Origin: Lytechinus pictus
Lineage: Eukaryota
DNA length: 64,000 nt
Reading direction: 5' to 3'
Assembly: GCF_037042905.1 (NCBI RefSeq)
Contig: NC_087250.1
Location: 20,400,001-20,464,000 of the forward strand
The notes under the pieces were generated by a model. That model saw only the letters and a program-made list of their open reading frames with translations. It searched no databases and had not been told where the DNA came from. A program made the translations under genes and the position numbers. Shown here in pieces: positions 531 through 45,545 of the stretch. Position 1 is the first letter of the stretch; each line of letters begins with the position of its first letter.

Positions 531-3500
531 CTACTATTACTTGAACACAGTAGGCTAAGTTCAGCTAGCGAGATGAAGACGGCCCTTGTTTACCTGACCT
601 GTATCTCATACGGCTATGTATGGTGTGAAGGAGAAGATGGCATTCCAGACGTAAGTTAGGGGAAAAAAGAAGAAATATGTCGTCGATTTGCTGGCAGACG
701 AACAATAGGTTGCGTGTGCGCGTGGATGTGTGAGTGCTGAATATTTCATTGCTGTGCAGCTGTTAAAAGGGCGTTAGCTCAAATGTACTACACAATGCAA
801 ATTGTAAAAGTGCATGCGACTAAAAACAATGTATTTGAGAGTTGAAGCTAAATGAACGTAGTTGCAGTAAAACACTAATTTCGTGAGAAAGTCTGTAAAA
901 CCAAGGTTAAGTATGACTATATCATAGTGGATCTAGATCTGGTACAGTTACATAAATTGAACTTTGTGAAATCATAAAATCTAAGCTGAAATACAATCAC
1001 TCTGAAGATCGCCAACACAGATAGGCACACGTGGGACAGTTTATTATTATTGCTGGAATAAAGACCCGACGGAAGTGACCGAATCCGCGCTTATTTTGCT
1101 TATTTCTCAGCAATTACACAATTTCTTCCAGAATCCTTTGGCACATATTTTTTATTCATACAAACAGACACTTGGGTGGTCATGATATTAGATTCTGTAA
1201 AAAGTCATTTTGAGATCGTTACCAGAACTGGAATTTACCTTTAATGCAATGCGAATTGTATGGTTCGTGGAGGAGTTGATACCCTTTGATGCCAATTTAA
1301 TACCATTTTGATGATCAAAAACAGTTTTTTGTGCATCGGTAGGACTAGTGAGCATGCGGTAACTATGGAAACTAGTCTAAACCCACTTGGCTGCGCCTCT
1401 TGGGTTAAACAGTTCCATAGCTACCTTATGCTCACAAAATTAACCTACTGACGCACTCACACCTGTTCATAATTTGTATAATAATGTTGACTTTAGAAAA
1501 GCTGTATAAAAGCTTGAATAAACATCAAATTTCTGAATGGGTTTTTCTTCCAACGAAAACAGGTTTTTACCCTCATGTCTTGAAAATTCCTAATTGTTGC
1601 CACTTTTTGGATCAGAGGCACAATGGTCTTGACTCCTCTATATAAGGTTTATGACATGTCAACAATTACCAATCCTCAAACTCCTGACTTGTTCCCTCTC
1701 CCAAATGACAGGTTTTACCCTCGTGTCTTGCTATACCCTATGCTGCTATAGCAGGGAAGCTTCAGGTTCTTCCTTCAATTAGTCAGTATAGCTTCATCCT
1801 TCTTAACTGGAGACTCAAGAACCCCAATGGAAAGGTGGAATTAGAGTAAGATATTCATTCTCATTCTTCAACCAGAGCTGCTGCCAACTATTCCATACAT
1901 ACATGGGCGGAAATCCCAGGGGGGGGGGGGGGACAGGAGGGATGCGTCCCCCCTACCCAATATATTAGGGGGACACAATATAAAATGTCCCCCCACTATC
2001 TTTGGTCTTTTATGATGGAAAGAAATACAGCATTCAAAATCGAAATAAAATTGTATTTTGGACGAGATGACCTTACTTTTTGGTGATAACCTTTTTTTTT
2101 CTTTTTTGAAATGTTTTTGCTTGTCAAATTTATTTGGGTCGAGGGGAATGACCTTTCATTTGGGGTGATAACCTTTTTTTTTGCTTCTCAAATTTTCCAG
2201 CCCCTGGTCCCCCCCTACCTTTGGGGAGGGATTTCCGCCCTTGTATACATACATTTTGGCATAAATGTAGTGCAACTGATGTAATGCCTTTCCTTAGTAA
2301 TATGTCTGAAGCGATTTACATTAACAAGTTCTAGGTAAATTTAGACCACACTTTTTGGAGTGCCAGTTGTGAACTAATTCACCAATTGAATTTTTTCTTA
2401 TCCTGTTGCAAAGAGGTGTAAAAAAGGAAATTACAAAAAAATATGATTAATTAAATGATACATAATAACCTATACCAATATGTAAGAAATATTGTGAAGC
2501 TGACATTCCATTGAAGTGGGGTTTAAAGTGTTAGTTAGGATGAGGGTGATACCTACTTGTAGGTTTAATTATCAGAAAACTAACCGAAGGGTTTGCGAGA
2601 GCTTACAATTTTTAGAGAGGATATGAGACAAGGAATGGGTTTTATTGGTTTTTTTATAAATATTTGTTGTGAATGACATGACCAGATGTTGCTGGGGAAA
2701 CTTATGAAAAGCGAGATTGTAGGACTGGAGATGTGAAATGTATGGTGGTGCCAAGTGGGCTGTTAAAGAATGGATTAGTTCACTTTTTAATACTGGATGC
2801 AACTGGGGATTTTATTGTGATTATTAACAGGGTGCTACATAACTTTTTAGAAGCTCTTGCCCGGTCGGGCAAGTAAATTTTTTCTATTTCACTTGCCTAA
2901 AAATTCCTTTAAAAAAAGTTTACCTCTTCAAAAGAAAGTTTTGTGGTTTTATAAACCATTGACCCTTTTCTCTCTTTTGACATGAACTGATCTACCTTGT
3001 TATTGCATTTCTTTTTCCAAAGTGAATATCTTGCCTGCCATGATTGAAATTAGGATAAATATCATATCACCTCAACCCTAATTTTGGTCATTCTTCTGTG
3101 AGAATTTTGCTTTCTACCATGTGAATTTTGCTTGCCCAATACGGGCAAGTAGTTTGGGCCTTTACTTCAAAACACTCTAAATTTTGCTTGCCCTGGGCAA
3201 TCCATTGTTACGTTACGTGGTGGAGCAGATGAGCGGATGGGTGCTTATGTAGCACCCTGTTATAAGTCACATTTCAATCCTTGTGAACCCCCCCTCTGCT
3301 CATATAAAATGTTGATTATAAAAAGAGTTGTTCAATGATTTGTTTCTTCCAGCAACATGGAATCCATTGTCACGTTACGTGGTGGAGCGGATGAGTCTTG
3401 GTTCTATTGTACAACTGTTCAAGTGGAGCTAGACTTCGCTCCAGCCCTTTCGAGTATTATTGAGGCTCAAAAGGTACTTTTGTTATTATGAATGAACAGA

Positions 3501-6500
3501 CATTATTCATAAATGTGATATGCGCTATACAAGGACTGTGTATTATTATTATTATTATTATTAGATGCCTTTGAAATAACAGTATTTTGAAATTTATGTG
3601 GTCTACTCCAACTTTTATCTTTCTTTAATTTGGTCCCGTCCAACATAGTATATCCCTTGTTCGTTTACAACCTTTTTTCTACTATCCAGTCTGTATAACT
3701 GCCATTAAGCCTGTCTTTAACTTTTATGAATGGTCGATAAAACTATTATGGAATATTGCAATATTAAAAACTTGTAGTAGCCATTTAATCTTTTTCCAAC
3801 TGCTCATTTCCTTGTGAACTTGTTAATATTCCAGTCAATAATATCTAGTGCCCTCTCTATAACATATTTTCATTTTGCTTCAAAAGGGCCCTTTGAGTAT
3901 TTATCTTACAAGTTTTACAGACAAAGATTATATCCTAAAATTTTCAGCCTGACCGTGCTTTGGAATAGGTTTTTTATATCAAATGGAATAACCATGCAGA
4001 TATTTCATAGCTTTTCATATAAAATCTCAAAATTTATCCGTATAACACTTTTTTTTGCATGCCACTGAGTTGTGCATATCCCCGTTTTGTGAAAAATAAG
4101 CGAAACTTTAAAATGTCCTAAATTTCTTATTGTACATGTGATTTTGATCAGCGCTATGCTGATTTGATTATTTCTCTATTTATTCCAATCAACATTTTTC
4201 TGGGGTGGACTTGTCCTTTAAATATCAATTAGACCAGATTGATAGTAGACCATGTGTGTTCAGTCCATGTGGTGCTAGACTATCTAAGAAGTAGATTAAT
4301 TACTTTTAGACCAAGGGCATAAAACCCTTTTATTTTGTGTTCATTGGTGACCTTGAGGTTCTAAAAAATTAAAAACACAAAGGCAAGTATTGTGAAGTTG
4401 GGTTTAAAGTAAACTCTGGTTTAAAGTTGTGGTTTAACTATGGAAAGCTAATTGTGACATTTTTAACAGTATGGATTCAAAGTATCAGCTAATTTGACTC
4501 TCAAAATCATTTTAAATTGTCTGGGTCTCTGGGAACAATGAATATGATGGTTGTATTTATTATTAAAGAAATAAGAAAGAGCATGGTAAACATAAGAAAC
4601 ATACCATGTGAACAAAATTTTGACATTATTGGCTTTCAATAATTTTAGCAAAAAGTTAGACCATGGCCTAAGTTAAACCTGACTTCAGAATACGGGCCAA
4701 AAAAGGTAGTCCTATATAGAATTGTGTTGTCCTTGTAACTTTAATACCTTATTTATACTGTAACAGATTCATATTCACCCATTTGCTTTCATTTTGAAGG
4801 CTGTTCTAGATGGATCCTCGCAGCGATTGGTAAAGCATCTGAAGACTATAGAGGCCGCTCTCTATAAGATGAGAAATAGCTTGAACAGAATGTCTGGTGA
4901 GTCACCCGCTCCTGTTCCCAAAGTATATGTATGTTACATAATTAAGCCGATTAGCCTTAAATCTCAAAATAAAAAGAAAGTGTTCAGGACAGCGGCTCAG
5001 AAAAAGGTCTGTTTTGGAGTAAGTGGCAAACTTCTTTTGCATAAAATGATTAAACGACAGAAAATAGGATACTATTTTCAGACAATTTGAGTACTCCTCT
5101 TTCAGTGCTTTTCTTAATTTCTAGAATTTTTAGATTTAAGATTTTATTAGCTTGGTGCCAATATTTTATGGTTTGCTGGGAAGAAGCAGTTTTAACTAGG
5201 AAGTGTTGTGGCTGAGTGGATAAGTCTCCAGACTTGTTCTGAGGTTCAAATCCCACCAAGACACTTGTGTCTTTTGGCAAGGCCTTTAACTACATTTGCC
5301 ACTCTCTACTCAGGTGTACATGTAGTTTATGGGTACCCCTTAGGAAGGAATTTTTGAATACTCAATGGGTGATTTCAAGTCCAGTGTTGACCTTGGTGTT
5401 GGTGTTGAAATTTGGACTGCCTCCCCTAGCTCCAAAACTTATTCAGAGTTTGCAAAACTGATCCAGATCACATTATTGACATCTCAACGACTAGTGAGTG
5501 ACTTTTCGAGACCATCTTCATTTTGTGTTTAGTGTTATATTTGTGTAAAAATTGACCTAACACCAACACCAAAAGGTCAACACTGAACTTGAAATCACCC
5601 AATCAGGATAGCCGTGCTAAATCCGGGGTAAAAATCTGCAGCACTTAGAAAACATTTTGTCAAGCACTCTACATATATATTATGTTGCATGTTGTTACTA
5701 TTTTTATTGGTATTAAGACAACAACTGGTTACATTTCTGTCTTAAAAACAGAGGGTTGTCGACCAGACGTGTTCTTTAATGTTTTCAGACCTTACATAGC
5801 AGGGTAAGTGTTAGGAATGGTGCTTTGCAATGGTGTCTTGACATCCAGTGCTAGTGTTTTGAATTGTGCTTTGCTATATCTACACCTTGCATGCAGTGTT
5901 TATTGCCAGTGCTAATGGTCATATTGGAGCTTTTCAAGTTCCAACCTATAGTGTTAATATCCAGTGCTAGTGTTTATCATGGTGCTTACAAGCTGACCCC
6001 ACATACACTTGTGGAGTTAATGTCCTGTGCCAGTGTTCATGATGCTTGGCAAGCTACAATCCATAAACCTTTGGCATTATCATCCAGTGCTTCTTTGATT
6101 TACAAGATGCAACCTTATACACTTTTGATGTAAATATTAAGTGCTAGTGTTTAATATAGCGCTCTTCAAGCCATACTATCTGTTCTTCTTATATCTTGAG
6201 TGCTTTGTGCTTTGCTATCTACATCTGCATGTGCTCTTTGTGGAGGCGCAATAGCTCACGTCGGTGGAGCAGAGGTTTTGGATTCCGGTGACCCGGGTTC
6301 GATTCCCACTTGGTGCGCTAGTGCCCTGTGGTAAGGCATTTATCCTCATTACCAGGTCCCTCGGAGAGGACCTCAAGCAGTTGATCATCTGGTTGCTTGC
6401 TTACAAACATTCATACTTTCTTAGCAATCAGGTAAAAAATCAACACCATTTACCATTTATATCTAGAGCTGGTGCTATATATGTCGCTTTTTATGGGCTA

Positions 6501-9500
6501 AATAAATGTTGCATATTATTATTATTAGGTGATCTGTCAATCGACAGATCAACTATTAATTTCGTACGAATTTTCTTTTTTATTTATTTATTTTTATTTT
6601 TCCGCCCTTTTCTTGTTGCCATAAAATCTCAAAATCTACATCATCAATTATCTTCAAAATATCATCAGATATGGGGACTTAACCTGTCATCTGTATGAAA
6701 CCAGTTCCAGGTCAAAAGGTCATCGTGACGCCATTTTGTAAATTCACATTATCAATCATATCTTCATTATCAATTATAAAAAATTAACCATATTTACATC
6801 ACATTAACTTCAGGTCAAGGGTCAACTGCCCATGTCATCAAAGGTCATGTAAAGGTCACGACGTGCGCATACGCGCGCGTCAAAATTTTAAAATGCTCAA
6901 AATCACTTTTTGACCAAAGTAGAGTATGAAATAGGCCATTTTAAGCATTTCAAAAATTTGCACGCGCGCACGGTTACGCGCGTAACGGCACTATGCAACA
7001 TAGGATCGCCATTTTTTTTTATATCAATGCACTGATAATATAATTCTGAACAATTTGATACCTTGATCAACCTTCTACGACAAGTAATAACGGAATTAGC
7101 CTCCATCAAAGTTTACAGCACGTGCGCGCGCGCACTAACCATAGACAATATACGTGCAAAAACATGCCTACAAAATTCATTATAGCTCTTCAGGAAGTCC
7201 GTTGACCCCCAATTTTTTTTTCATATTCGAATAGAGTATTATGAATGGGAGATATGATTTCATGTCACATTTGACCCGAAATTTTATCATGACGTCATCA
7301 AAATGGCGTCGGAACACAAAATTCCCATTTTGCTACTTATGACGTCATCATAATTATGCATATTTGACTCTAACTGCATAAATATTGGCCAATTTTTGCT
7401 AAGTTTTCAATATGTTGTAGCTGAGGACATACTCTTTCTAATTTGATGGTTATATTTACATTTAAAGGAACGAATCATCCTGAAAAATGGCAAGTTATAG
7501 AGACATGTCATTTTCGCTCATTTTGTGTGCAATCTCTATGGGAAATGACTTTTTCTCAAAACTGGATTTTACATTCCTCTATTTCGCGAGCCATATCTCC
7601 ATTTCTTTTTGTCGGTTTTCTCTGAGCTTGGAGTATGTTGTAGCTGAGATTGTAAGCTATCGCCAATATGGTCTCCATTTTCCGATCAGATGCCGGGATT
7701 ATGCCCGTATTTCACTTGCAAAATTGGATTTGAGATCCGCTTGTTTTGCTTATGTGTAAAGTCTATGGGAAGTGTGTAGCTCAATGGGTAAGGCATGAGA
7801 CTCGCGTCCTTAGGGTCCAGGGTTCGAGCCCAGGGGGCAGGGGTGAACATGATAATTTTTTTTTTTCTTTTCAACATATCACAAATGGTCCTTTATGACC
7901 ATTACAATGTATATAAAATAAAATATTGGACAATAAAAGATATTAAAATCCCTTTTAATGTATAATGTTCCTGTACAATATGTGTATGAGTATGACCTAC
8001 ACTTTTTCACACAACTTTTTCATTTCCCTCTTTTTCAAAAGTATTCAACACGTTCTTTTCGTAAGAGAAGTTCAGTTTTCATCATGATGATCATATTGAT
8101 CTCAATAAACATGCTGATTGTCTTCCTGATCATGAAATCAGAGACAGATCACCTAATTCGTCCTCATGACGAATTAAAATTCTAGTTTTTCTCATTATTA
8201 CAGTATAATGCAAAATACCCATTCATGTGTTTTATTTGTATGTATATTTGTTTCCTGCTGCAGTTGGGACTCACAGCCATTTAAAAAGAAAAATCTGAAT
8301 GGTCTGATCTACGAGGGAGTCAGCAAACAGCCTTTCTGTGTAAGTAAACCCATTAATACACGATTCAATTTCAGCTTTCCATATGATTTCAGCTTTTTAT
8401 ACACATTAGGGTCTGATCTATGAAGTGGTCGTCAAGGAGCCTTTCTGTGGAAGTAGACCCAATAAACCTTATTTAGTTTCAGTTTCCCTTATAATTTCAG
8501 ATTTCCATAGACATTAGGGTCTGATCTGCGAGGGAGTCAGCAAGCAGCCTTTCTGTGGAAGTAAACCCATTAATACATATTCAATTTCAGCTTTTCATAC
8601 ACATTAGGGTCTGCAGATCTGTGAGGGGGTCGGCAAAGGGCGTTTCTGTGGAAGTAGACCCAATAAAACTTATTCAGTTTCAGCTTCCCTTATAATTTTA
8701 GCTTTCCATAGACATTCTAGGGTCTTGTCTATTTATGAGGAAGAACCCTTACTGTGTAAGTTAACTACTTGAACGCAATTTGATTTCAGCTTCCCATAGA
8801 CCTTACAATCTGATCTAAAACAGAGTAAGCAAGGAGCCTTTCTGTGTGACCTGAACCTTGAAAATTATTTGATTTCAGCTTTTATACAATGTCAGCTAGT
8901 ACAACGCACGCAGTGCGAGTTAACCTGTTAACATCATTTGGGAATGGCACAACATACACATACTACTTTTAAAATGAAATACAAATTTTCAATCCATTTT
9001 ACTCGTTATGATGATATGATATCAAATGTTTAGCTTCAGGATTAAAAGAAACTTGAAAATTGTGTCCTATATGAGATGTTGAACCTCTGTGATTTCATTG
9101 TCTTTTTTTATGATATTTCTCTTTTTCTTCAAATAGTATACTGGTCTCAGTGCTGCACAGAGTTCAACCTTACCATGTCTTGATGCTGCTTTTGGAGTAG
9201 TTCATGAAGAAAAAGAAGGTAAGAATTGAGAAAGATGGAGAATTGTGACCAATCACTTACTGTAATTTCTTTGATTGCCATTAATAGCATCAATACTTTC
9301 AATTAAGACTTGATTTTATTGATAATTTCTTAGGGGTGTTGCAAGAAAATATTTGCCATCAGTTGCAAATATTCTGTTGCAGTTTTAAGTGTAGCAAATC
9401 AGATTACACTCCTTGTTTCAAGGAGCAGATGAGCAATCAACCAGAAATTGACAGTTAATTGCAAGACATATGATTGATTTAGGGACCAAACATAGACTTG

Positions 9501-12500
9501 AAATTGATCGCAAGTTTCTTGCAACACTCCATAATTTGTGAAATCATTACTTAAAATGCGTTTCTTACATGTACAGGCATGGATGGGGAGGGGGTGTCTG
9601 CAAAAATTAATGATATGACCGTTTTTTCCTTGTCAATTTTTTTTTTCTGGAGACCAATCCTTCTTCATTTATGAATGATGACCTTTTTTTGTGGGGGGGC
9701 AGCTTGTCAAATATTTTTGGACAAAACACACCCCCTTCATCAGAAAGATCATGGTGCCACGAAGGAACAAGTTCCAACTATTTTTTAGACTTAACATAGA
9801 AGAAAAAATTATTTGTCCATTTTGTAAATCTAGGCTCTGAGTGAATTGGAGGTCTACCTTTCAAAATTTGGTATTTAAGGTCATAATTATTATATTTTTC
9901 AGATCAGTCAAGACGATTCTTCCAGGAGTACATGCCGAAACCACACAGAGAGTTGATCGACGCCATCACAGCAGGACCATCAATCAAACAATACAGTAAG
10001 TCATCTTTCTAACAATCATAATAATTCAAATTCAAATTCAATTCGGTTTTATTAACCCTAAATCTCCCGGGGTATTTTGATTCTTGTCATTCCGGGGGGG
10101 GGGGGCCATTATGGCACCCCCTTAAGATCTCAGCCGCGGATTGCGCGATCACAACAAAAATTTGCATGATGGTAGAGAATGACGTAATCTACGCAGTTGC
10201 ATTGGTAAATTTCACTGAATTCATATATTTTTATTTTATATGAATTAATTATGCTAATTTATTCATGAAATCATACTTTTGCTCTGATTCACTAAATAAA
10301 GCTCCTAGAATGCTATTTTTTGGTGAAAATATTCTTTATAGCATTCCTAACAATTGTGAATGAAAAAAATTCTGGTACCAAGACCGATTTCTTATGTATT
10401 TTATTGTTTTTTTTAATTTCTTATGTATTTCTTTGTTTTTTTTACTTTTTGTTTTTTTATTGTTTTTTGGATGTAAATCGTTCCAGACTTAATTCTGATC
10501 ATAAACAAGGCAAAATTAATTAAGTTTAATCAGTAAAAGTAGAAATAATGATACATTTATGAATTTTGACTAAATACACAATTTGCATTGGATTTGTACA
10601 TGAAATCACGTTTATGAGCAATTTTGGGTCTGACATGCACTTACATAATGTTGCGTAATGTCGTAACCGCGTACCCGGGCGTCACAAATTTGGTCTCAAA
10701 ATTTGCGTGAGACTTAAAAAGTAAAAAGTCAGTGAGCAGCGAGGTCAAAAGGTTTTGCGCAGCAGATATATCTCGAAAATTGTCGAGGGGGGGCCATTAT
10801 GGCTCCCCTCCCCCGGGAGAATTAGGGTTAAACAATACTCATCAAAAAGTCTGAAGACTAACAATGTGAGTTTACATTTTTTTTAATACATAACAAAGAA
10901 TATTAAATAATAATAAATGATAATAATTCCCATTTTGATAATAATAATAATGATGATGATTATAATAATGATGATAATGATAATAATAATAATAATAATG
11001 ATAATTCCAGAGAGATGGGCAAGCATGTGCAAAAGCCCTTTATTATAATGATATAATTCAGTGCACGAATTTGAGATTACATTGATTTTTTTTCTTTCTG
11101 TCAGTACTCCCTTGCCTTTGTATATTTTGAAATGACAAGAATACCGGAGTTGGTTGAATCTTTCTAGATCAACTTTGAATAAGTGACACTGGACTCATGG
11201 GCCCTGTCTTACAAAGAGTTGAAATTGACCCGATCAACCACAACTATGGAAAGCCAGCAACGTCAACATCTAAAATGCATGTTTATTCAAATTATTTTCT
11301 AGATATGATGCATATTCATACATTCATTGTTTTCTTGATAATTCATTGTGCTTTTCTCTGTTCAAACAGTACATTATGGAAATTGTCTGATGAAAATATC
11401 ATAACATTGTGGGATTTCCATATACCTAGTAGTTAATGCTGATTGGATCAATCATAACTCTTTGTAAGACGGGACCCTGATTTGTAAAGATAGCGATATA
11501 ATTCAGTGAACGAAGTTGAATTTGCTTTGTTTCTTTCTTTCTATCAGTACATTCCTCTGGTTCGTCTGAAGCAGTTGAGGTGTTCAATGATTGTCTTCAA
11601 GCCATGAAGTGTTTCAGGGACTCTCACCTCCAGGTGGTAACGAGGTAAGATTGGTTGATCCTGGGTTGGAGGGGGGGGGGGGGGCAAACAGGCCTTGTAA
11701 ACCCACTATCCTGATGTGTTAGTTTGCTTTTAAGGTTGTTATAGAGGAAAAACTCCATCCCTCAGATTGGATGTTAAATGAATTAAAGGGGAAGTTCACT
11801 CTGACAAAAAAATTCTGTAAAAATAGAAAAATATTTAATATTATTGACAAAAGTTTGAGGAAAATACATCAAAGAATATAAAAGTTTGAATTTAATCATT
11901 TAATTTGTGACTTCATACGCAAGCAGCTTTCGTTCATATCATTTGGTTAAAAATCAATAAAATGTCATTTTATCAGAAAATTGAAAATACTTTTTAATCT
12001 AGTTTCATTATATCAATAAAAATATCATTTCACACGTGTTCCTTTAAAAAAAAAAAAAGTAATCACAAACCACTGAAAAATTGTTATTTATGTATTTTAT
12101 ATTAGATAACATATGGGGCAGGCCGCCCGGGCACTGAAAATTCTAATAACTTAATCTTTGGGTTTTCGTAAACCTCCACCAATATTTCTTATGGTTTTTC
12201 TGCTATTTTTACAACATACTTTCCCTCGGGGTGAACTTCCCCTTTAAGGCCCTTTGTAGAGGAGGGCAACCAACTTTGAACATTGGTTTCTAAACCCAAG
12301 ATTCTTATAGAAGTAGGGGAAGGACCCACGTGTTACAGTGACTCGGTTTGCATCCCAGGCACAGGAGATGCTAAACAAACAATAATGGATTTTTTTGCTT
12401 TCAGAACAAAAAGCCTTTTTCTATATTTGTTATGAACATTCATTTATTAATCATATATTTATAAATCTCTTTCCACAGAGATTGGTAAATGAATGATTTT

Positions 12501-13620
12501 TCAAAACATAAATTATTCATTCATCTTTTCAAGAAATCACATATTTGTAAATGCTTTTTAAAGATTGTGTAATTTATTGTGTAATTAATTTTCTCTTAAA
12601 AAGATGATTACGTTTTTTTACAGAATGTTTCGCACTGTAGAACACTTTTCTCAGCAAAACAGTGCACAATAAGAACTTACTCTGTAAAACAATTAGTCTA
12701 ATTTGCACTGAAATTTGTAAATACAGTTTCCTTAGCTGTAAATATAGTTCAATATTGTGTTAAGAAATAAATTTTGTGAAAATTTGACATTTTTTCAGAA
12801 TGCTAATCTTTTTAGACTTGATTTTTTTGTTGTTGGTCAGATTCATTATAAACATGGCTCATAAGAAGACTGACCCTGCATCATCAAGCGAGGGCGCAAC
12901 AGGAACAGGTGGAACAGGTATGAAGCATCAATATATCAATAGGTGGATAGAGCTACAATGTGCTCTTGAGACCAAAAAAGTACTCCAAATGGTCAAAAGT
13001 TCAAGTGGGCAAAATGAATTCCATACTTGTTTTCTATTGCATGTGTGCGCATTGTTACACATGGTATGGCTTCATAGTGTTGTATAGTATTTTTCCTTTG
13101 CTTTAAGGTCATGCATGCATCAGCGCACAACGGGCTCTATCCAGCTTATTGATATTGATAGAATGAAGTCATTTTATTCTTGATAACTCTCATTTCAAAT
13201 CAGATATTCCATTTTATGTCACCGACATTTACAATCACTCAAAATTCAAATTTTATTGTGTTTGTGTATTCAACCAAAGTATGGCTGCTTGCGTACATGC
13301 GATCAATGTCTTGAAATGGCCCAGTTAGAATATTAAGGTTATGGTATCATTTTTATAATCGGGATCATAATTATTTGATTTCTTTTATCACTGTCATGCT
13401 AGATTTAATGACCTTCCTGAAAGGTCTCCGGGATTCAACCGTCAGGGCGATGCTACGCACAACCGGGGGAGGAGGAGGGGATGCGGATGAGCATCCTGTT
13501 TCCAAGTCAACCCTTCCAAGATGGGTGAAAGGAGATGGGATGAGAGTCGTCCAGGTCACATCCGTGTTTATTGCTGCGGTAGCGGGGACCATGTTGATTA
13601 TGAAGAAGCTTTCCCGATGA
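531..13620 (+). CDS. IDO: Indoleamine 2,3-dioxygenase family heme protein, 5'-partial (388 aa in window), with C-terminal hydrophobic tail
   Basis: Exons 531-650, 1712-1845, 3353-3473, 4800-4896, 5752-5803, 8264-8339, 9137-9218, 9903-9995, 11548-11644, 12841-12917, 13403-13620; all AG/GT-bounded, phases join, total 1167 nt ending in TGA. IDO motifs: YGYVW..VLP, NW, FFNVFRPYIAGW, GLIYEGV, SAAQSS, YMPKPHR, FRDSHLQVVTRFI (proximal His), GTGGTDLMTFLK. The first exons lie upstream of the window. Confidence 0.93.
850..1243. mobile_element. Non-autonomous DNA element ending CCTTTAA; related decayed copies ~13741-14133 and inverted ~52420-52775
   Basis: Shared blocks such as gttgcagtaaaa, tctagatctggtaca and tttggcacatattttttattcataca between copies. 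Confidence 0.6.
1902..2243. mobile_element. hAT-like MITE with poly-G/poly-C arms
   Basis: TIR catgggcggaaatccc / gggatttccgcccttg; flanks catacata / tatacata (7 of 8 match). Confidence 0.7.
2828..3260. mobile_element. MITE with TIR cagggtgctacataa / ttatgtagcaccctg
   Basis: 15-bp perfect TIR; internal cttgccc/gggcaag repeats. Confidence 0.7.
5197..5690 (+). mobile_element. tRNA-derived SINE interrupted by a small inverted-repeat MITE (~5366-5602)
   Basis: A/B-box-like gtggctgagtgg...ggttcaaatccc; insert has tgggtgatttcaagtccagtgttgacc / ggtcaacactgaacttgaaatcaccca. Confidence 0.6.
5815..6230. repeat. Degenerate intronic tandem repeat (core atccagtgctagtgttt)
   Basis: Core recurs at ~5843, 5960, 6082 and 6140; the segment gtgctttgctatatctaca also recurs. 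Confidence 0.55.
6243..6520 (+). mobile_element. tRNA-derived SINE; same family inverted at ~43166-43380 and as a fragment at ~19243-19350
   Basis: tagctcacgtcgg A-box and ggttcgattccc B-box, then gtgccctgtggtaaggcatt; (tat)n tail; near-identical copies elsewhere in the window. Confidence 0.8.
6522..8187 (+). mobile_element. Helentron/HINE-like non-autonomous element containing a tRNA-like segment (~7773-7835)
   Basis: 5' subterminal ttaggtgatctgtc and 3' gacagatcacctaa, followed by hairpin aattcgtc..gacgaatt and ctagtt end. Confidence 0.6.
8301..8885 (+). repeat. Tandem array (~90-113 bp, ~6 units) derived from the 3' part of an IDO exon plus its splice donor
   Basis: ggtctgatct...cctttctgtg units at 8301 (real exon), 8410, 8518, 8608, ~8721, ~8808. 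Confidence 0.85.
10056..10827. mobile_element. piggyBac-like MITE (CCCT...AGGG ends, TTAA TSD)
   Basis: TTAA at 10052-10055 and 10828-10831; inverted near-identical copy at 55725-56498; related element ~16616-17877. Confidence 0.85.
11199..11478. mobile_element. ~280-bp MITE family (gggccc..gtcttacaaagagtt ... aactctttgtaagacgggaccc)
   Basis: Clear TIR; further copies ~14306-14579, 14621-14882, 42526-42789, 43010-43485, 55701-56752. Confidence 0.8.
11787..12243. mobile_element. TTAA-flanked AGG...CCT MITE (Kolobok/T2-like)
   Basis: ttaa|aggggaagttcac ... gtgaacttcccct|ttaa; partial copy ~59060-59390. Confidence 0.8.
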
Positions 13621-14305
13621 TGTTTGCTTCTCATATTTTTTTCACGCAGTGAAATTGAAACAAATGTGGGTCCCTCTTTCAAGTTTGTTCAAGAGTAGGT
13701 TGGCTGTAATAAAGGTGAGTCCGCCTTAAAGCCATATCTCTTTAAGGTAAAAGAAAGAAGTTGCAGCAAAAAAATTATTTAATGGGAAAGTCTTTTTAAT
13801 CAAGGTTTATTTTCACCATATTATCATAGATCTAAATCTGGTACATTAATGTAACTGATCTTAGTTTGTGAAATCATGAAATCTTAGCTCAAAACCAATA
13901 ATTCTTATGATCACTAACACAGAAAATCCACAAGTCAGACAGTGTATTAATATTGCTTGAAAAAATACCTGACATTTATTTTGCTCATTTTTCAGCAATT
14001 ACGCATTTTCTTCCAAAACCATTTGGCACATATTTTTTATTCATACATACATTACAAACACTTAGGTGGTAATATAATTGGACTCTATTTAAGCTCATAT
14101 TGATATCGCTACCACCACTGGTATTTATCTTTAAGATCATGGAAATCTTTTTAATTTTGGCAAAACTCAACTAAGTCATCAATAAAACATGTGCAGGTGA
14201 CTCTTCCTAATTTGGATCTCTTGGTTCCAAAGAAATCTGTAGGAATTTAAATAAAATTGATTTAATTAAATCCTATTTTATGTAGCCCTTTTGTATGCAA
14301 GCCAT

Positions 14306-20659: not shown

Positions 20660-22770
20660 TAGAATAATAATAATTCAATTTTTATATAGCGCCTATCAAA
20701 ATTTCTCTAAGCGCTTTACATCACAAAACCTAACTACTTAACTTATCAACTTAACTACCTTACTTGACTAAACATCCAACGTAACTACCTTACATACAAT
20801 ATCTAAAATACCAACTTAACTACGGACATATTAACTGTAAAAAAAATCATACTATTTACGGAACAAAATAATATGTCTTAAATGCTACTTTAAAGGAACT
20901 TAGAGAAGAATGTGATCTTAAGCTAAGAGGAAGTGAGTTCCAGAGTGTAGGAGCCACAACTGAGAAGGCTCTGTCGCCATGGGTGTGGGAGGTTGCCTTG
21001 GGAACAACTAAAAGGTTCTTGTTGGATGACCGAAGTGATCGGGAGGGTTGGTAGGTGTTGATCATGCTCGCGATGTATGAGGGGGACTTTCCTTGGATGC
21101 TCTTAAATGTTATGACGAGGATTTTGAAGAGGATACGCTTCTCTACAAGTAGCCAGTGCAGTTGCTTGAGTGATTTAGATATATCCTGTTTTCGAGGGAC
21201 TTTATTGACAATTCTAGCAGCAGTGTTCTGTATTCTTTGTAGCTGAGAGATGAGATTTTGCGGAAGTCCAAAAATGAGACTGTTATTGTTGTCAAGCCTG
21301 CTAGTAATGAAAGCATGGACCAAGGCCTGCGTCACTTGGGTCGTAAGGTATTGTCTGATCTGTCCTATTCTTCGAATGGCAATCATGGCAGAGCGACAGA
21401 CTGCTGCAACATGTTCTTTCATCATAAGATGGCGATCCATTATGCATCCAAGGTTTCTTGCGTGGGAGGATGATTCAACTATACCTGGTTTCCAATAGCA
21501 ACAGACACTGATTCAGGTGAGGGCCGAAAACGTGATGAGAAGTGAACAATGTCTGTTTTAGATTCATTCATCGCGAGCATGTTTTTTTTTAGACCAAGCT
21601 TTGATATATCTGCAAGACATTCACTGATACGGGATAGCGACTGAGCCCTGTCAATTGGTTGAAAAGTCAAATATATCTAGGTGTCATCGGCGTACATCAT
21701 CGCGTCCAATCCATGTGCTTTTACAATATCATATATCGGAGCACTGTAGAGTGTGAACGTAAGTGGGCCAATCACAGATCCCTGGGCTACTCCACACGTA
21801 TCACTATAAACTCCTGAGGAAGAGCCGTTTATTGACACTACATGGGACCTGTCTTGCAAGTATGACTGGAACCAACTTAGGACCATGTCACAAAAACCAT
21901 AGCGTTCAGTCAATCTTCTTAAGAGGACTCGATGGTCGATCTTGACAAATGCCGCACTGTAGGTAGTTTAAGAGGACAAGCACAACTTCCTTGTGACCAT
22001 CAAGCGCAAGAATGTCATTTTGGACTCTTATTAGAGCTGGTTCAACCAAATGATGGGCCCTATATTCAGACTGGACATCTGGCAAAAGATTATTAGTGGC
22101 CAAATAATCATTGACCTGACCAGCAACTGTTCTCTCAACCAGCTTTGCCACAAAACTCAAGTTCGATATGGGTCGATAACTCTCATTTCGAGGAAGGTTG
22201 TCCTTCTTGATACTTGGTGACGCAATTGCCTGCTTCATTGTTTCTGGTACCACGCCTGCTTGAAGACTACTGTTGACGACATCAGTTAGGATAGGAAGCA
22301 ATGTTGGCGTGCATTTCTTTAGCAAAGATGTTTGAATTGGGTCCAGATTGCATGCAGGTAGAATTGGAGGCTGCCTTGATTGTCTTCAGCACTTCATCTT
22401 CTGTGACATCATCGAATTCTGCTAAAGAGGCATCACACGTGTCAGGAACTTGTACAGACATGTCTTGGTTGGGACAACAGTTCAACTCATCGCGCAACTT
22501 CTCGATTTTCGTTTCAAAGAAGTCACCAAATGACGTTGCGAGTTGTAGGTCAGAGTCATGTTCAGGAAGAACCATCAGCTGTCTTAGTATAGAAAGGCTG
22601 TTAGACGAAAAAGAGCACCGACTGTCAGAAGCACGCACCTTTTCAAGAAAATAACTGAACAATCTGATTGTTTCTTAGTCAGTCTACGGACCAAGTCTGT
22701 GATAGGCCATTTAATTTTAGCGATTAATCGTCGTGTTACGAGGCTCTGGTATACATAAAACTCCAAATCT
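20660..22770 (-). mobile_element. 5'-truncated, frameshifted L2/CR1-clade LINE (ORF2 reverse transcriptase remnant)
   Basis: Fragments YRPISNLSFVAKLVER, GVAQGSVIGPLTFTLY, YADDT, LVHAFITSRLD, LQRIQNTAAR, GDRAFSVVAPTLWNSLP in several frames; L2-type 3' end tgtaaagcgcttag..ggcgctatataaa with (tat)n tail. Confidence 0.92.
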
Positions 22771-26457: not shown

Positions 26458-29400
26458 GCTACTACTACAACCCCATACTACTTCTTCTTATATTCGTCTT
26501 CTTCTTTTTCTTCGTATTTCTGATCTCTTTCTACTTCTTCTTGTTCTGCTCTTCTTTTTCTTCTTCTTCTTTTTTTCTTCTTTTTCTTCTTCTTCTCCTT
26601 CTTCTTCTTCCCATCCTCTTCTCTTTCTTCTTCTTCTTCTTCTCTTTCTTCTCTTTCTCTTTTCCTTCTTCTTCTTCTTCTCTTTTTTCTTCTTATCTCC
26701 TTTTTTCTTTTTCTTCTTCTTCTTATCTCCTTTATTTCATTTTTTTTCATGATACACTCCTCCACAGGCCTTGCTCGATACCCTCTCATTAACCCGGGTC
26801 TATCTCAGCGCTGCCGGAGTCTTTATCGCTCTCTTCGGGATGGGTTGCGTCATATCCATCAAAGATTTCTCTGAGCGGGAGAACCACCTCTCAAAGAGTG
26901 TGGTCATCGGCCTCGCCTTCCAGTCTTTCATCCAACCCGCCATCGGGTACGCTCTCGCTCTCCTACTCGACATGAAAGAGAACGAGGCGTTGACCATCAT
27001 CATGCTCGCGATCTCGCCGGTGTCGCCGCTGTGTGCTGTCCTGGTTTATTACGGCGAAGGCGTCGTCATTGTCGGGTTCGTATGCTGTTTGATCTAAATC
27101 AACGCGAATGTACGTAAATATGTGACATCAGATATAGTTTCCGGGGGATCTGAATTCTAAATAATGAAAAATATAATAGATCTATTTTTTGTCATTCTGA
27201 ACAAAACTTAAATAATATGCATGAACTAAAATACGATTGCTCCTGTATACAGAGGCAGCGTCACTACAGAGATGGGGGTGGGGGCGAGGGTTCACCCCCC
27301 CCCCTGTGATTTTTCAAGAAGTGAAACTCCAGGAAGAAGAAAAAGAAGGAAGAGGAAAGGAGAGTAGATCTAAATGCGACCGCACACCTTACGATTGGTC
27401 TGCATGCGACCCGATTTCAGAATAAAATGTAGTAGAATTTGATGCTAATATTGAGACTTGGAATATCTTACTATGTAATGTTCTAAATCGTCGTACGAAT
27501 ACCTATGTTCAAATCTGTGACTATGCTATCATCCTTCTTAGAATAAAAGCGAATTTAATATCTAGTCGTAATGACGTCATAGCAGTCGTACGATTGGCTA
27601 AGATTTGAAACTTATTTGGCCTTTACTCCACAATAAAAGCTTGCAATCTTTCAAAATAGTTATATTAGTATTCTTTCAATTAATTTTAACCTCAAATAAA
27701 ATGATATGTTCCATTCACATTTTCAGAAAACGAGCAAAAGTCTATTTGTTCCAAAATCGGATCGCGAACAGTCGTAAGGTGTGCGGTGGCCTTAACAGAC
27801 AACTGAGGTTTGGAGTGTGTTCTTGCACTTCCAATAATAAAAAAAAGAATTTTAAACTTTTTAGTCATATCTTTATACATTCAGAATATAGGTGATGACA
27901 GATACGTCCTCGTTTTCTTAACACTAGGCTTTGCTTGGCCATGCTCTCTACTGCCCTCTCCGTCGGTCTCATTCCATTTTGGTTCTCTCTCTACTCGACT
28001 ACCTGGTCCCACGAGTATTACGTCATTGCTCCGCCAATCAACATCGTACTGACAGAGCTGTTGATATTCTTTCCTACCCTACTAGGGGTGATGTACCAGA
28101 GGAGGTTCGGGAAACTCAAGGGGAGATTGATGGCCAAGGTAAGGTCTAGGATCAGCTCAGGGGCGGATCCATGCAGGATTTTCCCGATGAAAATCTGACA
28201 AGCCCCCCCCCCCCTCAAAAAAAAAAAATGTCTTCACTTTCAAAATTGGGGCACACTTTGGTAAAAATGGTATATTTACATTGCAAATTTTGATTATGGC
28301 TCTCAAAAGGGGGGCACGGGCCTGCTGCCCCGCCACCTGGATCCACCAGTGGATCAGCTTTATTTGGGGAGAAGAATGATCGAGATAAGGAGAGTGCGTG
28401 TTCCTTCTTTTAAAAATAACCCAATTCCCTCTATCGCCTGGTATCATGTTCGTAGAGTATACTCTTCAAAAGGATTATAACCATGCATTGATGAATTTGT
28501 CCGTCCAACAAATAATGGTAAAAATCAACCAATTTCCAATCTGGGCAGATAATTCAAATTAACTGGTTTCAAATCGATCCGATTCATTGGTAACTGGAAA
28601 TAATCTCCAATTGGAAACCAATTGGAAGTAATTTCCAACTGGAGAAATACTCGGCTGGTTCCTATTAGAAGTCATTTCCATTTTAAGTCATGTCCTATTA
28701 CCAGGCCTGTTACCCAATACAGTTTTCAGTAACTGGAACCAGTTGGGCAAGTAAAAATCCCAACTGTTGTGATTTCTACTTGCCTAACTGGTTCCAGTAT
28801 AGAAGTCATTTTGGTTACCCAACTGGTAACTGGTTCCAGTTGGGATGTTCAGTTACCGAAGTGGTTCTAGTTGTGATGTCCAGTTGCCCAACTGGTTCCA
28901 GTAAGAAGCCATTTGGTTCCAGCCGGCCCACCTGGTTCCAATTAGGATTTCCAGTTACTGTTTCCAATTGAAACCAGTTGAAGCCAATTGAAACCAGTTG
29001 GATCGATATCCAACCGGTTCTCTTCATCACCTACCTCATTTTTCTTTTCATTCTCATCTCAGATATGCAGCTTCGGCTTCTGGATAGCTTCCATAGTTAG
29101 TCCAATCGTGAACGCCGGTGTCAATCCCGACTTCTATGACGTTTCGTGGCAGATTTGGGTCGGCGCCATTTGTCTTCCGGTCATCGGATTCGTGTGCGGC
29201 CTGGTCTTCGCTCTCTTCGCAAGCCTCCCTTTCGACGTCTGCAGCGCTATCTCCCTCGCCGTCGGCGTCCCGAACGTCTACATCATGAGCCAGATCTCGG
29301 AGCGGTACCTGTCGGCTGATCCGAATACCTTGCACGACGTGCACGGTATTATCAACATCTTCAGCTTTGTCATGCCAATAGAGGGTTTCATCTGGGCAAT

Positions 29401-29554
29401 ATTGTATCGTGTCATCGAGGAAATGTTCGTGAAGTTGACACCAACTTGTTGCTCCGGCGGTATTGATGATGCAGATGACAGTGATACGAAAAGATTGTTG
29501 GTCAACATGGACAGTGGTACCGAGAGCGCAGAGAATGCAGAGAGTGCTACTTGA
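25583..29554 (+). CDS. SLC10 (bile acid:sodium symporter, ASBT/NTCP-like) family membrane protein, ~362 aa, divergent
   Basis: Exons 25583-25660 (MEDLHSHLNHS...DIST), 26768-27075, 27928-28138, 29063-29554; GT-AG and phase consistent. SLC10-like segments: LFGMGC, IGLAFQSFIQPAIGYALA, LSVGLIPFW, LPVIGFVCG, AISLAVGVPN. Many hydrophobic helices and an N-terminal NHS sequon. The first coding exon is less certain than the others. Confidence 0.85.
26210..26750. repeat. (CTA)n and (CTT)n microsatellite / polypyrimidine block upstream of SLC10 exon 2
   Basis: Directly visible triplet runs. Confidence 0.9.
27376..27795. mobile_element. MITE (gaccgcacaccttacga ... tcgtaaggtgtgcggtggcc); copies ~33073-33960 (interrupted) and inverted ~35400-35902
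   Basis: TIR and shared internal sequence among copies. Confidence 0.7.
28550..29025. repeat. Low-complexity short-period repeat (aactggtt/ttccaatt)
   Basis: Many recurrences of aactggtt, ccagtt and ccaatt. Confidence 0.7.
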
Positions 29555-44395: not shown

Positions 44396-44429
44396 TAAAT
44401 ATCTTCCCAAAGAAGCCTCAATATACCTT

Positions 44430-45545
44430 TGTTGGTCAGGCAACAGAGTCTACACGCAGTCAAAAAGAATCTTTTCCAGATAGGCATTGAGGAACATTCG
44501 TACAATCATGTTAGATTCTTCCGGACAAAGCCCCAGGACACCACCCCAATGACCCCGCAGGATAATGCCATCAGCCAGGAGGCGAAGTCTAGTCTAAGAA
44601 TATCCTCTCAAGATACGTGTTTAGAAACATCCCATTGGGATCTAATCTCTTACGAACATGACGGCATTTGAGAGATTTCTTGTACAATGATGTTAGTTTC
44701 TTCCGGACAAAGCCCCAAGACCTCCCTGATGAACCCGCAGGATAATGCCATCAACCAGGAGGCGAAGTGTAGTCTAAGAATATCCTCTCAAGATACGCGT
44801 TTAGAAACATCCCATTGGGATCTAATCTCCTATGAACATGACGGCATTGGAGAGATTTTTTGTACAATGATGTTAGTTTCTTCTGGACAAAGCCCCAAGA
44901 CCTCCCTGATGAACCGGCAGGATAATGCCATCAACCAGGAGGCGAAGTGTAGTCTAAGAATATCCTCTCAAGATACGCTTTTAGAAACATCCCATTGGGA
45001 TCTAATCTCCTATGAACATGAGGGCATTTGAGAGATTTCTTGTACAATGATGTTAGTTTCTTCCGGACAAAGCCCCAAGACCTCCCTGATGAACCCGCAG
45101 GATAATGCCATCAACCAGGAGGCGAAGTGTAGTCTAAGAATATCCTCTCAAGATACGCTTTTAGAAACATCCCATTGGGATCTAATCTCCTATGAACATG
45201 AGGGCATTTGAGAGATTTCTTGTACAATGATGTTAGTTTCTTCCGGACAAAGCCCCAAGACCTCCCTGATGAACCCGCAGGATAATGCCATCAACCAGGA
45301 GGCGAAGTGTAGTCTAAGAATATCCTCTCAAGATACGCGTTTAGAAACATCCCATTGGGATCTAATCTCCTATGAACATGACGGCATTGGAGAGATTTTT
45401 TGTACAATGATGTTAGTTTCTTCCAGACAAAGCCCCAAGACCTCCCTGATGAGCCCCCAGAGTAACACCGTTGGTCAGGCAGCAAGTCTAGTCTGACAAA
45501 ATCCTTTCTAGATACGCGTTGAGGAACATCCCGTGAGGATCCAGT
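44430..45545 (-). repeat. 180-bp tandem array (5 full units plus partial ends) containing copies of the GULO C-terminal coding sequence
   Basis: Period 180 (ccggacaaagcccc at ~44521, 44703, 44883, 45063, 45243, 45423); minus strand reads RLDPNGMFLNAYLERIFLD. Confidence 0.92.

What the first reader, a model, noticed from the sequence alone, without database searches (positions are those of the whole stretch)
13456..13620. IDO-family enzyme with a C-terminal tail-anchor
Seen: after the normal IDO end (GTGGTDLMTFLKGLRDSTVRAML) the frame continues 54 aa: a Gly linker, then a 19-aa uncharged segment VVQVTSVFIAAVAGTMLIM (13546-13602), then KKLSR-stop. Known: characterised vertebrate IDO1/IDO2 are soluble; a moderately hydrophobic C-terminal TMD with a short basic tail is the signature of tail-anchored proteins, often mitochondrial outer membrane; tail-anchored cytochrome b5 is a proposed IDO1 reductant. 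Inference: a membrane-tethered IDO-like heme protein positioned beside its redox partner.
Basis: partly seen in the sequence, partly recalled or inferred. Interest (0 to 1): 0.78.

Follow-up and report, generated by a model that had tools for sequence, protein, structure and literature searches.

The report
Membrane-anchored IDO in sea urchins
A sea urchin member of the normally soluble tryptophan-oxidising IDO enzyme family ends in a predicted membrane anchor, shared with other urchins and a sea cucumber, and has a reshaped substrate pocket, which suggests an IDO-like heme protein that works on an organelle surface; neither location nor activity has been shown.

Summary
13403-13620 is the last coding exon of an IDO-family gene. 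The 11 exons in the window splice to 388 aa, identical to the end of Lytechinus pictus XP_063957238.1. Contigs from 2 of 3 runs join the last three exons exactly. The tail is a ~30-aa disordered linker, a 19-aa uncharged helix (GRAVY 2.09) and KKLSR. A terminal hydrophobic segment is present in 18 of 20 urchin and sea-cucumber records that reach the C-terminus, and in 3 of 172 other IDOs; sea stars lack it. New here: urchins have two anchored paralogues, A (this gene; basic tail, mitochondrial/peroxisomal type) and B (no residue after a more hydrophobic helix, ER type). Clade A also has Leu at IDO1 Gly262, seen in 0 of 205 non-urchin homologues, while heme ligand H346, R231 and GTGG are kept. 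Aplysia and an environmental clade gained similar tails independently. Membrane insertion, organelle, substrate and the cytochrome b5 partner are untested inferences. Verdict: a real new variant of a known family.

The parts
531..650 (+). First IDO coding exon inside the window (residues 68-107 of XP_063957238.1); residues 1-67 lie upstream, outside the window
   Evidence: AG/GT borders, open spliced frame, 0 differences to P0003
1712..1845 (+). Coding exon carrying Q132/F135/I136 (human IDO1 Y126/C129/V130)
3353..3473 (+). Coding exon carrying F169/Y170/T173/E177 (IDO1 F163/F164/S167/E171)
4800..4896 (+). Coding exon
5752..5803 (+). Coding exon carrying F232/F233/R237 (IDO1 F226/F227/R231, kept)
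8264..8339 (+). Coding exon (the donor after 8339 gives the open frame that matches P0003)
9137..9218 (+). Coding exon with the DE loop G270-L271-S272-A273; Leu stands at the position of IDO1 Gly262
9903..9995 (+). Coding exon
11548..11644 (+). Coding exon with R349 and proximal heme ligand H352 (IDO1 R343/H346)
12841..12917 (+). Penultimate coding exon: JK loop and GTGG motif
13403..13455 (+). Last exon, end of the IDO core (last helix)
13456..13545 (+). Linker, residues 402-431, poorly conserved; pLDDT below 50 over 404-434
13546..13602 (+). Predicted transmembrane helix, residues 432-450, 19 uncharged residues, GRAVY 2.09
   Evidence: (helix 428-454)
13603..13620 (+). Basic tail KKLSR (net +3) and TGA stop
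13621..13765 (+). 3' UTR covered by the spliced contigs; true 3' end not established (AATAAA at 13708 is changed in the X3 allele)

Best explanation
The gene encodes a tail-anchored IDO-family heme protein. SHOWN: an intact IDO fold with the heme-binding and substrate-carboxylate residues, then a flexible linker, one C-terminal hydrophobic helix and a short basic tail, with no N-terminal signal. INFERRED (about 0.85): the helix inserts after translation and leaves the IDO domain in the cytosol. INFERRED (about 0.6 given insertion): the +3 tail sends this paralogue (A) to the mitochondrial outer membrane and/or peroxisome, while paralogue B goes to the ER. INFERRED (about 0.6): it is a heme dioxygenase with low L-Trp efficiency or a shifted indole substrate, because Y126/S167 are Q/T and the pocket is crowded by C129F, F164Y and G262L. 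INFERRED, weakest (about 0.35): the anchor serves to place the heme on the membrane that carries cytochrome b5 and its reductase, which keep it ferrous, and KMO, which acts two steps downstream.
For: Splicing and transcript. Fold: Pfam IDO E=1.3e-97 over 18-398 and no other family; Foldseek best hits human IDO2/IDO1, TMq 0.78-0.80; model has a disordered linker and a terminal helix 428-454. Conservation of property rather than sequence: 18 of 20 echinozoan records with a long C-terminal extension end in a segment of KD19 1.67-2.82, within 6 residues of the end, against 3 of 172 other homologues. Versus Diadema A, identity is 8/19 in the helix and 4/30 in the linker. The two amino-acid changes of the X3 allele inside the helix are V>I and I>M. 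On a core-only tree the tailed holothurian and echinoid genes group together (92/61), with echinoid A and B as sisters (100/99). Targeting classes: PMC5450235 passages. Role of Y126/S167 and G262: PMC13440583 and PMC5700043 passages. Cytochrome b5 as proposed reductant that improves low-efficiency mouse IDO2: PMC4191572 section 11. KMO on the mitochondrial outer membrane through its C-terminus: PMC8747024 passage.
Against: No localisation, membrane or activity data. No dedicated TMD predictor was available; the helix is only moderately hydrophobic (approximate summed biological-scale dG +1.5, scale typed from recall) and its model confidence is 54-66. GRAVY 2.09 exceeds the yeast ER cut-off, and Diadema A has tail charge only +1. 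The targeting rules come from mammals and yeast. Both Diadema setosum B models lack the helix. The Apostichopus-echinoid node is not strongly supported (92/61), and the tails share little sequence, so one origin is not proven. No cytochrome b5 or reductase fusion was found in the 26 long or unusual homologues scanned. Leu at G262 could mean that Trp is not bound at all.
Confidence: 0.5

Rival explanations
1. Tail-anchored, but on the ER or secretory membranes like paralogue B, where cytochrome P450 reductase or ER cytochrome b5 would supply electrons.
For: GRAVY 2.09 is above the yeast ER threshold of 1.75, and hydrophobicity can override tail charge. Diadema A tail charge is +1. Sister paralogue B has an ER-type tail.
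Against: Tail +3 in Lytechinus and Strongylocentrotus A, and +2 in Apostichopus, against an ER mean of 0.21. A helices (1.75-2.09) are all less hydrophobic than B helices (2.24-2.82).
Confidence: 0.2
2. Membrane-anchored but no longer a dioxygenase: an O2-binding or O2-sensing heme protein (a functional parallel of abalone IDO-like myoglobin and of membrane-tethered globins), a peroxidase/peroxygenase, or a scaffold.
For: Leu at G262 in clade A, in 0 of 205 non-urchin homologues; G262 lines the Trp site. IDO-like myoglobins lost Trp activity, and IDO1 has peroxidase side activities (PMC4191572). S. purpuratus has two TDO genes, so bulk Trp catabolism does not need this gene.
Against: R231, F226, F227, the GTGG motif, S263 and A264 are all kept in clade A from Diadema to Lytechinus. 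That is expected if an amino-acid substrate still binds. Position 262 tolerates Ala, Glu and others in 63 of 205 homologues.
Confidence: 0.2
3. The terminal helix is not a membrane anchor. It packs on the core, mediates oligomers, or acts as a degron.
For: Moderate hydrophobicity, with Gln/Thr/Ser/Gly inside; hydrophobic moment 0.53 in Lytechinus A; low model confidence.
Against: The moment is only 0.09-0.35 in the other echinozoan tails. An uncharged run of 16-25 residues is kept while sequence identity falls to 2-4 of 19. A packing helix should keep specific residues.
Confidence: 0.08
4. A neutral read-through extension or a gene-model artefact.
For: 11 of 335 long six-frame segments of this window end in a similar stretch. 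The linker accepts many changes (4 amino-acid changes between two alleles).
Against: Spliced contigs cover it in 2 of 3 runs. Tail GC is 0.54 against 0.34 in the intron and 0.37 in the UTR. The feature is kept in two paralogue lineages across four genera.
Confidence: 0.02

Closest known systems
Human IDO1 (PF01231; PDB 5WMU, 4U74)
   Same: Fold (TMq about 0.78, 30% identity); H346, R343, D274, R231, F226, F227, F163, E171, S263, A264 and the GTGG motif are kept.
   Different: IDO1 ends a few residues after the last helix, with no anchor. Pocket residues Y126, C129, F164, S167 and G262 are Q, F, Y, T and L here.
Human IDO2 (PDB 9UZ0 series)
   Same: Best structural and sequence match (32%). Thr at the S167 position and a non-Tyr at Y126, the pattern linked to low L-Trp efficiency. 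Reported in membrane fractions of A549 cells.
   Different: The searched words 'transmembrane' and 'anchor' do not occur in that paper, and the IDO2 chain in the crystal construct ends right after the core. Gln rather than His at 126. The RefSeq name 'IDO2-like' is not orthology: echinoderm IDOs form their own clade (96/96), apart from the clade that holds mammalian IDO1.
Tail-anchored proteins of the mitochondrial outer membrane / peroxisome (FIS1, GDAP1 type; C-terminally anchored KMO)
   Same: One C-terminal hydrophobic segment, a short basic tail and no N-terminal hydrophobic signal (first 60 aa, best KD19 -0.21).
   Different: Unrelated catalytic domain; insertion and organelle not shown here.
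Abalone IDO-like myoglobin
   Same: An invertebrate IDO-fold heme protein diverged from the IDO1 pocket.
   Different: A muscle O2 carrier of Vetigastropoda that has lost Trp activity. No abalone sequence was compared here, and O2 binding was not testable.
Aplysia californica XP_005095612.1 (IDO family, RefSeq name 'myoglobin')
   Same: Also ends in a 19-residue uncharged segment (GRAVY 2.02) and a +3 tail.
   Different: Groups with tail-less Lottia and Lingula proteins (97/91, 97/90), so an independent gain. Keeps Gly262. A single gene model, not checked against transcripts.

Membership tests
IDO family (PF01231) | Profile match and two-domain IDO fold | tested here: met
   E=1.3e-97, residues 18-398; Foldseek E 1e-27 to IDO2 and 2e-25 to IDO1
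IDO family (PF01231) | Proximal His, D274-R343 pair, R231, GTGG motif | tested here: met
   H352, D283, R349, R237, G379-T380-G381-G382
IDO family (PF01231) | DE loop G261-G262-S263-A264 | tested here: inconclusive
   G, S and A kept; Leu at 262, absent from 205 non-urchin homologues, though 63 of them are also not Gly
IDO family (PF01231) | Heme binding and dioxygenation of Trp or an analogue | not testable with these tools
   needs purified protein
High-efficiency IDO1 type | Tyr126 and Ser167 | tested here: not met
   Gln132 and Thr173; role of the residues from PMC13440583 passages
Vertebrate IDO1/IDO2 orthologues | Falls in the vertebrate clade | tested here: not met
   Lies in an echinoderm clade (96/96), sister to a hemichordate protein (97/95); no named IDO2 row was in the tree
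Tail-anchored proteins | Single hydrophobic segment close to the C-terminus, short tail | tested here: met
   KD19 2.09, 5 residues after it; helix in the model. Hydropathy only, no dedicated TMD predictor
Tail-anchored proteins | No N-terminal signal peptide or signal anchor | tested here: met
   Best 19-residue hydropathy in the first 60 aa of P0003 is -0.21; this part lies outside the window and rests on the RefSeq model
Tail-anchored proteins | Post-translational, carbonate-resistant insertion, N-terminus in the cytosol | not testable with these tools
   needs fractionation and protease protection
Mitochondrial/peroxisomal TA class | Positive tail charge with moderate TMD hydrophobicity | tested here: inconclusive
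   +3 fits; GRAVY 2.09 overlaps the ER class; Diadema orthologue +1
GPI-anchored proteins (considered for paralogue B) | N-terminal signal peptide plus C-terminal hydrophobic signal | tested here: not met
   B proteins end in a hydrophobic run, but their first 60 aa reach only KD19 0.12-0.38
IDO-like myoglobin | Stable reversible oxy form, loss of Trp activity | not testable with these tools
   needs spectroscopy; abalone sequence not compared

The most novel reading that the evidence does not exclude
IDO-family heme proteins have repeatedly become organelle-membrane enzymes: C-terminal anchors in echinozoans, Aplysia and an environmental clade, and N-terminal anchors in another clade. In sea urchins one anchored gene split into a mitochondrial/peroxisomal copy with a uniquely rebuilt pocket (Leu262) and an ER copy with a small-residue pocket. 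Each would take electrons from its own membrane's redox chain and act on a substrate other than free L-Trp. This would be an undescribed membrane-bound heme-oxygenase chemistry and a natural test of the physiological IDO reductant.
Probability: 0.25. Interest if true: 0.8.

Novelty: new variant of a known kind. Interest (0 to 1): 0.52.

Why it matters
Two questions about IDOs are open in the review read here (PMC4191572): what keeps the heme ferrous in cells, and why low-efficiency IDOs are kept across kingdoms. An IDO that evolution tethered to a membrane, in two paralogues with different predicted addresses and different pockets, lets both be tested directly: swap or delete the tails, remove cytochrome b5 isoforms, and screen substrates, in a genetically tractable urchin. 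Repeated independent anchoring suggests a recurring advantage of membrane location for this family. The limits: gaining a tail anchor is a common evolutionary step (own knowledge), the protein is already in RefSeq with its tail, and everything functional is prediction.

Tried and rejected
No whole genome is held for this window, so the upstream exons, paralogue loci, cytochrome b5 and KMO genes could not be read. No listed run is on record as RNA; the contigs show presence of the spliced form, not its level, its strand or the absence of other last exons. Artefact or retained-intron reading rejected. GPI-anchor reading for paralogue B rejected for lack of a signal peptide. Reductase or cytochrome b5 fusion looked for in 26 selected homologues: none. 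One origin for all C-terminal tails in the family rejected: 6 changes on the tree, 0% of 200 bootstrap trees with one; two of the six are the D. setosum B models, which may be annotation errors. No complex prediction was run, because no urchin cytochrome b5 sequence was in hand. Literature searches: indoleamine+dioxygenase+sea urchin (47 papers, 30 listed); +echinoderm+Yuasa (0); +tail-anchored (15); IDO2/membrane localization/transmembrane domain (94, 20 listed); Apostichopus+IDO+tryptophan+kynurenine (5); IDO-like myoglobin/mollusc (63, 15 listed). None showed a title or abstract on an anchored or echinoderm IDO; I read listings only for most. Yuasa 2020 (PMID 31276825), which covers invertebrate IDOs of at least 15 species in 6 phyla, is not held and may treat an echinoderm IDO. 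Earlier scan notes held nothing relevant.

Full report
OBSERVATION. The window is AT-rich animal DNA. Eleven exons on the + strand, all with AG/GT borders (531-650, 1712-1845, 3353-3473, 4800-4896, 5752-5803, 8264-8339, 9137-9218, 9903-9995, 11548-11644, 12841-12917, 13403-13620), splice to one open frame of 388 codons. It has 0 differences to the last 388 residues of Lytechinus pictus XP_063957238.1, 455 aa, named 'IDO2-like'. After the IDO core the frame continues for 54 residues: a linker, 19 uncharged residues at 13546-13602 (Kyte-Doolittle mean 2.09) and KKLSR-stop. Three runs of one study were laid on 11500-14250. In X1 one 576-nt contig reads the last three exons in a row with 0 differences, through the stop to 13765. 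In X3 a 654-nt contig does the same with 18 differences in the last exon. X2 covers pieces but does not bridge. The RNA label of these runs is the tool's guess, but the contigs lack both introns. By itself the pattern is not very rare: 11 of 335 six-frame segments of 54 aa or more in this window end that way, against 27 of 20000 shuffles of the tail's residues.

WHAT IT IS. Pfam finds only the IDO family (18-398, E=1.3e-97). The AlphaFold2 model (mean pLDDT 82, 19-row alignment) has the IDO fold, a low-confidence stretch at 404-434 and a terminal helix at 428-454 with pLDDT 54-66. It matches human IDO2 and IDO1 at TMq 0.78-0.80. Of 230 homologues gathered reach the GTGG motif; the other 38 were left out of the tail count. 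Twenty of the 192 are sea urchin or sea cucumber records (several are alleles or isoforms of one gene), and 18 of these end in a hydrophobic 19-mer (1.67-2.82) within 6 residues of the C-terminus. The two exceptions are Diadema setosum models that depart from their D. antillarum counterparts just before the helix. Of the other 172, three do so: Aplysia californica XP_005095612.1 and two unnamed environmental proteins. Acanthaster, Asterias, Branchiostoma, Nematostella, Lottia and tenrec proteins stop shortly after the core, as does the hemichordate protein. A divergent S. purpuratus paralogue (XP_030845473.1) has no tail and lacks GTGG.

A maximum-likelihood tree of 63 chosen proteins, cut at the end of the core so that tails cannot drive it, puts echinoderm IDOs in one clade (96/96). 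Two echinoid paralogues are sisters (100/99): A (this gene; Lytechinus, Strongylocentrotus, Diadema; 100/99) and B (Lytechinus, Diadema; 98/94). Apostichopus joins them with weak support (92/61). Aplysia sits with tail-less Lottia and Lingula. The tail label needs 6 changes, and no bootstrap tree allows one. The simplest reading is one gain in the echinozoan line before the A/B duplication, and independent gains elsewhere; the single echinozoan origin is not proven.

The two paralogues differ in signal. A tails have GRAVY 1.75-2.09 and are followed by a tail of net +3 (Lytechinus, Strongylocentrotus) or +1 (Diadema); Apostichopus has 1.67 and +2. B tails have GRAVY 2.24-2.82 and nothing after the helix. 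In mammalian TA proteins mean tail charge is 6.03 (peroxisome), 2.5 (shared peroxisome and mitochondria), 1.12 (mitochondria) and 0.21 (ER), and a hydrophobic TMD with low charge favours ER (PMC5450235, passages). A therefore looks mitochondrial/peroxisomal and B looks ER-type. The same paper gives GRAVY above 1.75 as the yeast ER mark, which A meets, so the assignment is uncertain. Property is kept better than sequence: against Diadema A, identity is 8/19 in the helix and 4/30 in the linker; against B and Apostichopus it is 2-4/19 in the helix. In the X3 allele the helix has two silent changes plus V>I and I>M, and the linker has four amino-acid changes.

The active site is not standard. Aligned to human IDO1, H346, R343, D274, R231, F226, F227, F163, E171, S263, A264 and GTGG are kept, but Y126, C129, F164, S167 and G262 are Q, F, Y, T and L. 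Leu at 262 is in all five clade A sequences tabulated and in the divergent S. purpuratus paralogue, and in 0 of 205 non-urchin homologues (24 urchin records dropped before the count; 142 have Gly, 39 Ala). G262 and Y126 line the Trp site (PMC5700043 and PMC8689440, passages), and the Y126/S167 positions account for most of the IDO1-IDO2 efficiency gap (PMC13440583, passages). Clade B has another pocket (S or A at 126, A at 167, Gly262).

HOW IT MOST LIKELY WORKS. Shown: gene structure, spliced transcript, fold, conserved terminal hydrophobic helix, residue changes. Inferred: post-translational insertion with the heme domain in the cytosol (about 0.85); mitochondrial outer membrane or peroxisome for A (about 0.6 given insertion); dioxygenase with weak L-Trp activity or another indole substrate (about 0.6). 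Weakest (about 0.35): the purpose is nearness to cytochrome b5 and its reductase. IDO needs ferrous heme; cytochrome b5 is the proposed reductant and greatly improved mouse IDO2 in vitro (PMC4191572, sections read, passages). KMO sits on the mitochondrial outer membrane through its C-terminus (PMC8747024, passage), so pathway co-location is an equally untested motive. That cytochrome b5 isoforms are tail-anchored on ER and mitochondria is my own knowledge. Rivals: ER location (0.2), an anchored non-dioxygenase such as an O2 binder or peroxidase (0.2; S. purpuratus has two TDO genes), a non-membrane helix (0.08), a neutral extension (0.02).

COMPARISON AND NOVELTY. It is an IDO-family member by profile, fold and heme residues. 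It is not of the high-efficiency IDO1 type and not a vertebrate IDO orthologue. It meets the sequence criteria of a tail-anchored protein; the biochemical criterion could not be tested. Human IDO2 has been found in membrane fractions, and signalling IDO1 on early endosomes (PMC10671178, passages), so membrane association of IDOs is known; the words 'transmembrane' and 'anchor' do not occur in that paper. Six searches of the open library (listings read) showed no paper on an integral-membrane or echinoderm IDO. Subscription papers are missing, among them Yuasa 2020 (nothing seen but its citation). PMC9620070 was read in passages. No supplements were opened; the tree supplement of PMC4191572 may list urchin IDOs. 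Verdict: real, conserved, and not found described in these searches; a new variant of a known kind, interest 0.52.

Noticed in passing
proteins P0043, P0045, P0047, P0051, P0052, P0067, P0165, P0172, P0181, P0187, P0225: Long, mostly unnamed IDO homologues with an N-terminal hydrophobic segment (KD19 1.97-2.77) ahead of the core; the four put in the tree form one clade (100/100). They look like a second, signal-anchored route to membrane IDOs.
   Followed up: partly
P0110 (Aplysia XP_005095612.1), P0126, P0224, weakly P0228: Independent C-terminal hydrophobic tails on non-echinoderm IDOs; the Aplysia one has the same +3 tail charge as the urchin gene.
   Followed up: partly
P0011 and P0082 (Diadema setosum paralogue B models): Both leave the D. 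antillarum sequence just before the hydrophobic helix and end in polar or repeated sequence: annotation error, alternative splicing to a soluble form, or real loss.
   Followed up: no
P0234 / P0101 (S. purpuratus XP_030845473.1): A third, long-branch urchin IDO paralogue without tail or GTGG motif, with Lys at R231 and a P-L-T DE loop; a likely non-dioxygenase heme protein.
   Followed up: partly
window 52777-53070 (-): Exon matching Pfam ALO (E=8.8e-14), likely L-gulonolactone oxidase-like (ascorbate synthesis; name inferred). About 39 kb from the IDO gene; no link shown.
   Followed up: partly
window 26753-29554 (+): Exons of a sodium/bile-acid symporter (SLC10-like) gene; Pfam SBF hits at 26753-27094 and 27899-28195.
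   Followed up: partly
window 3199-3233 and 8410-8845: Partial copies of IDO exons inside neighbouring introns: 35 nt of the 3353 exon (94%), and three copies of the 3' half of the 8264 exon (79-95%). Possible cryptic splice sites.
   Followed up: partly
window 20856-22674 (-): Broken ORFs that look like a non-LTR retrotransposon reverse transcriptase (recognised by eye, Pfam gave no RT hit for the one piece scanned).
   Followed up: no
window 44399-45496: Tandem repeat of about 180 bp giving repeated open frames with no Pfam hit.
   Followed up: no
P0003 residue 69 (window 531-540): The window allele has Leu where other alleles and nearly all homologues have Pro; effect unknown.
   Followed up: no
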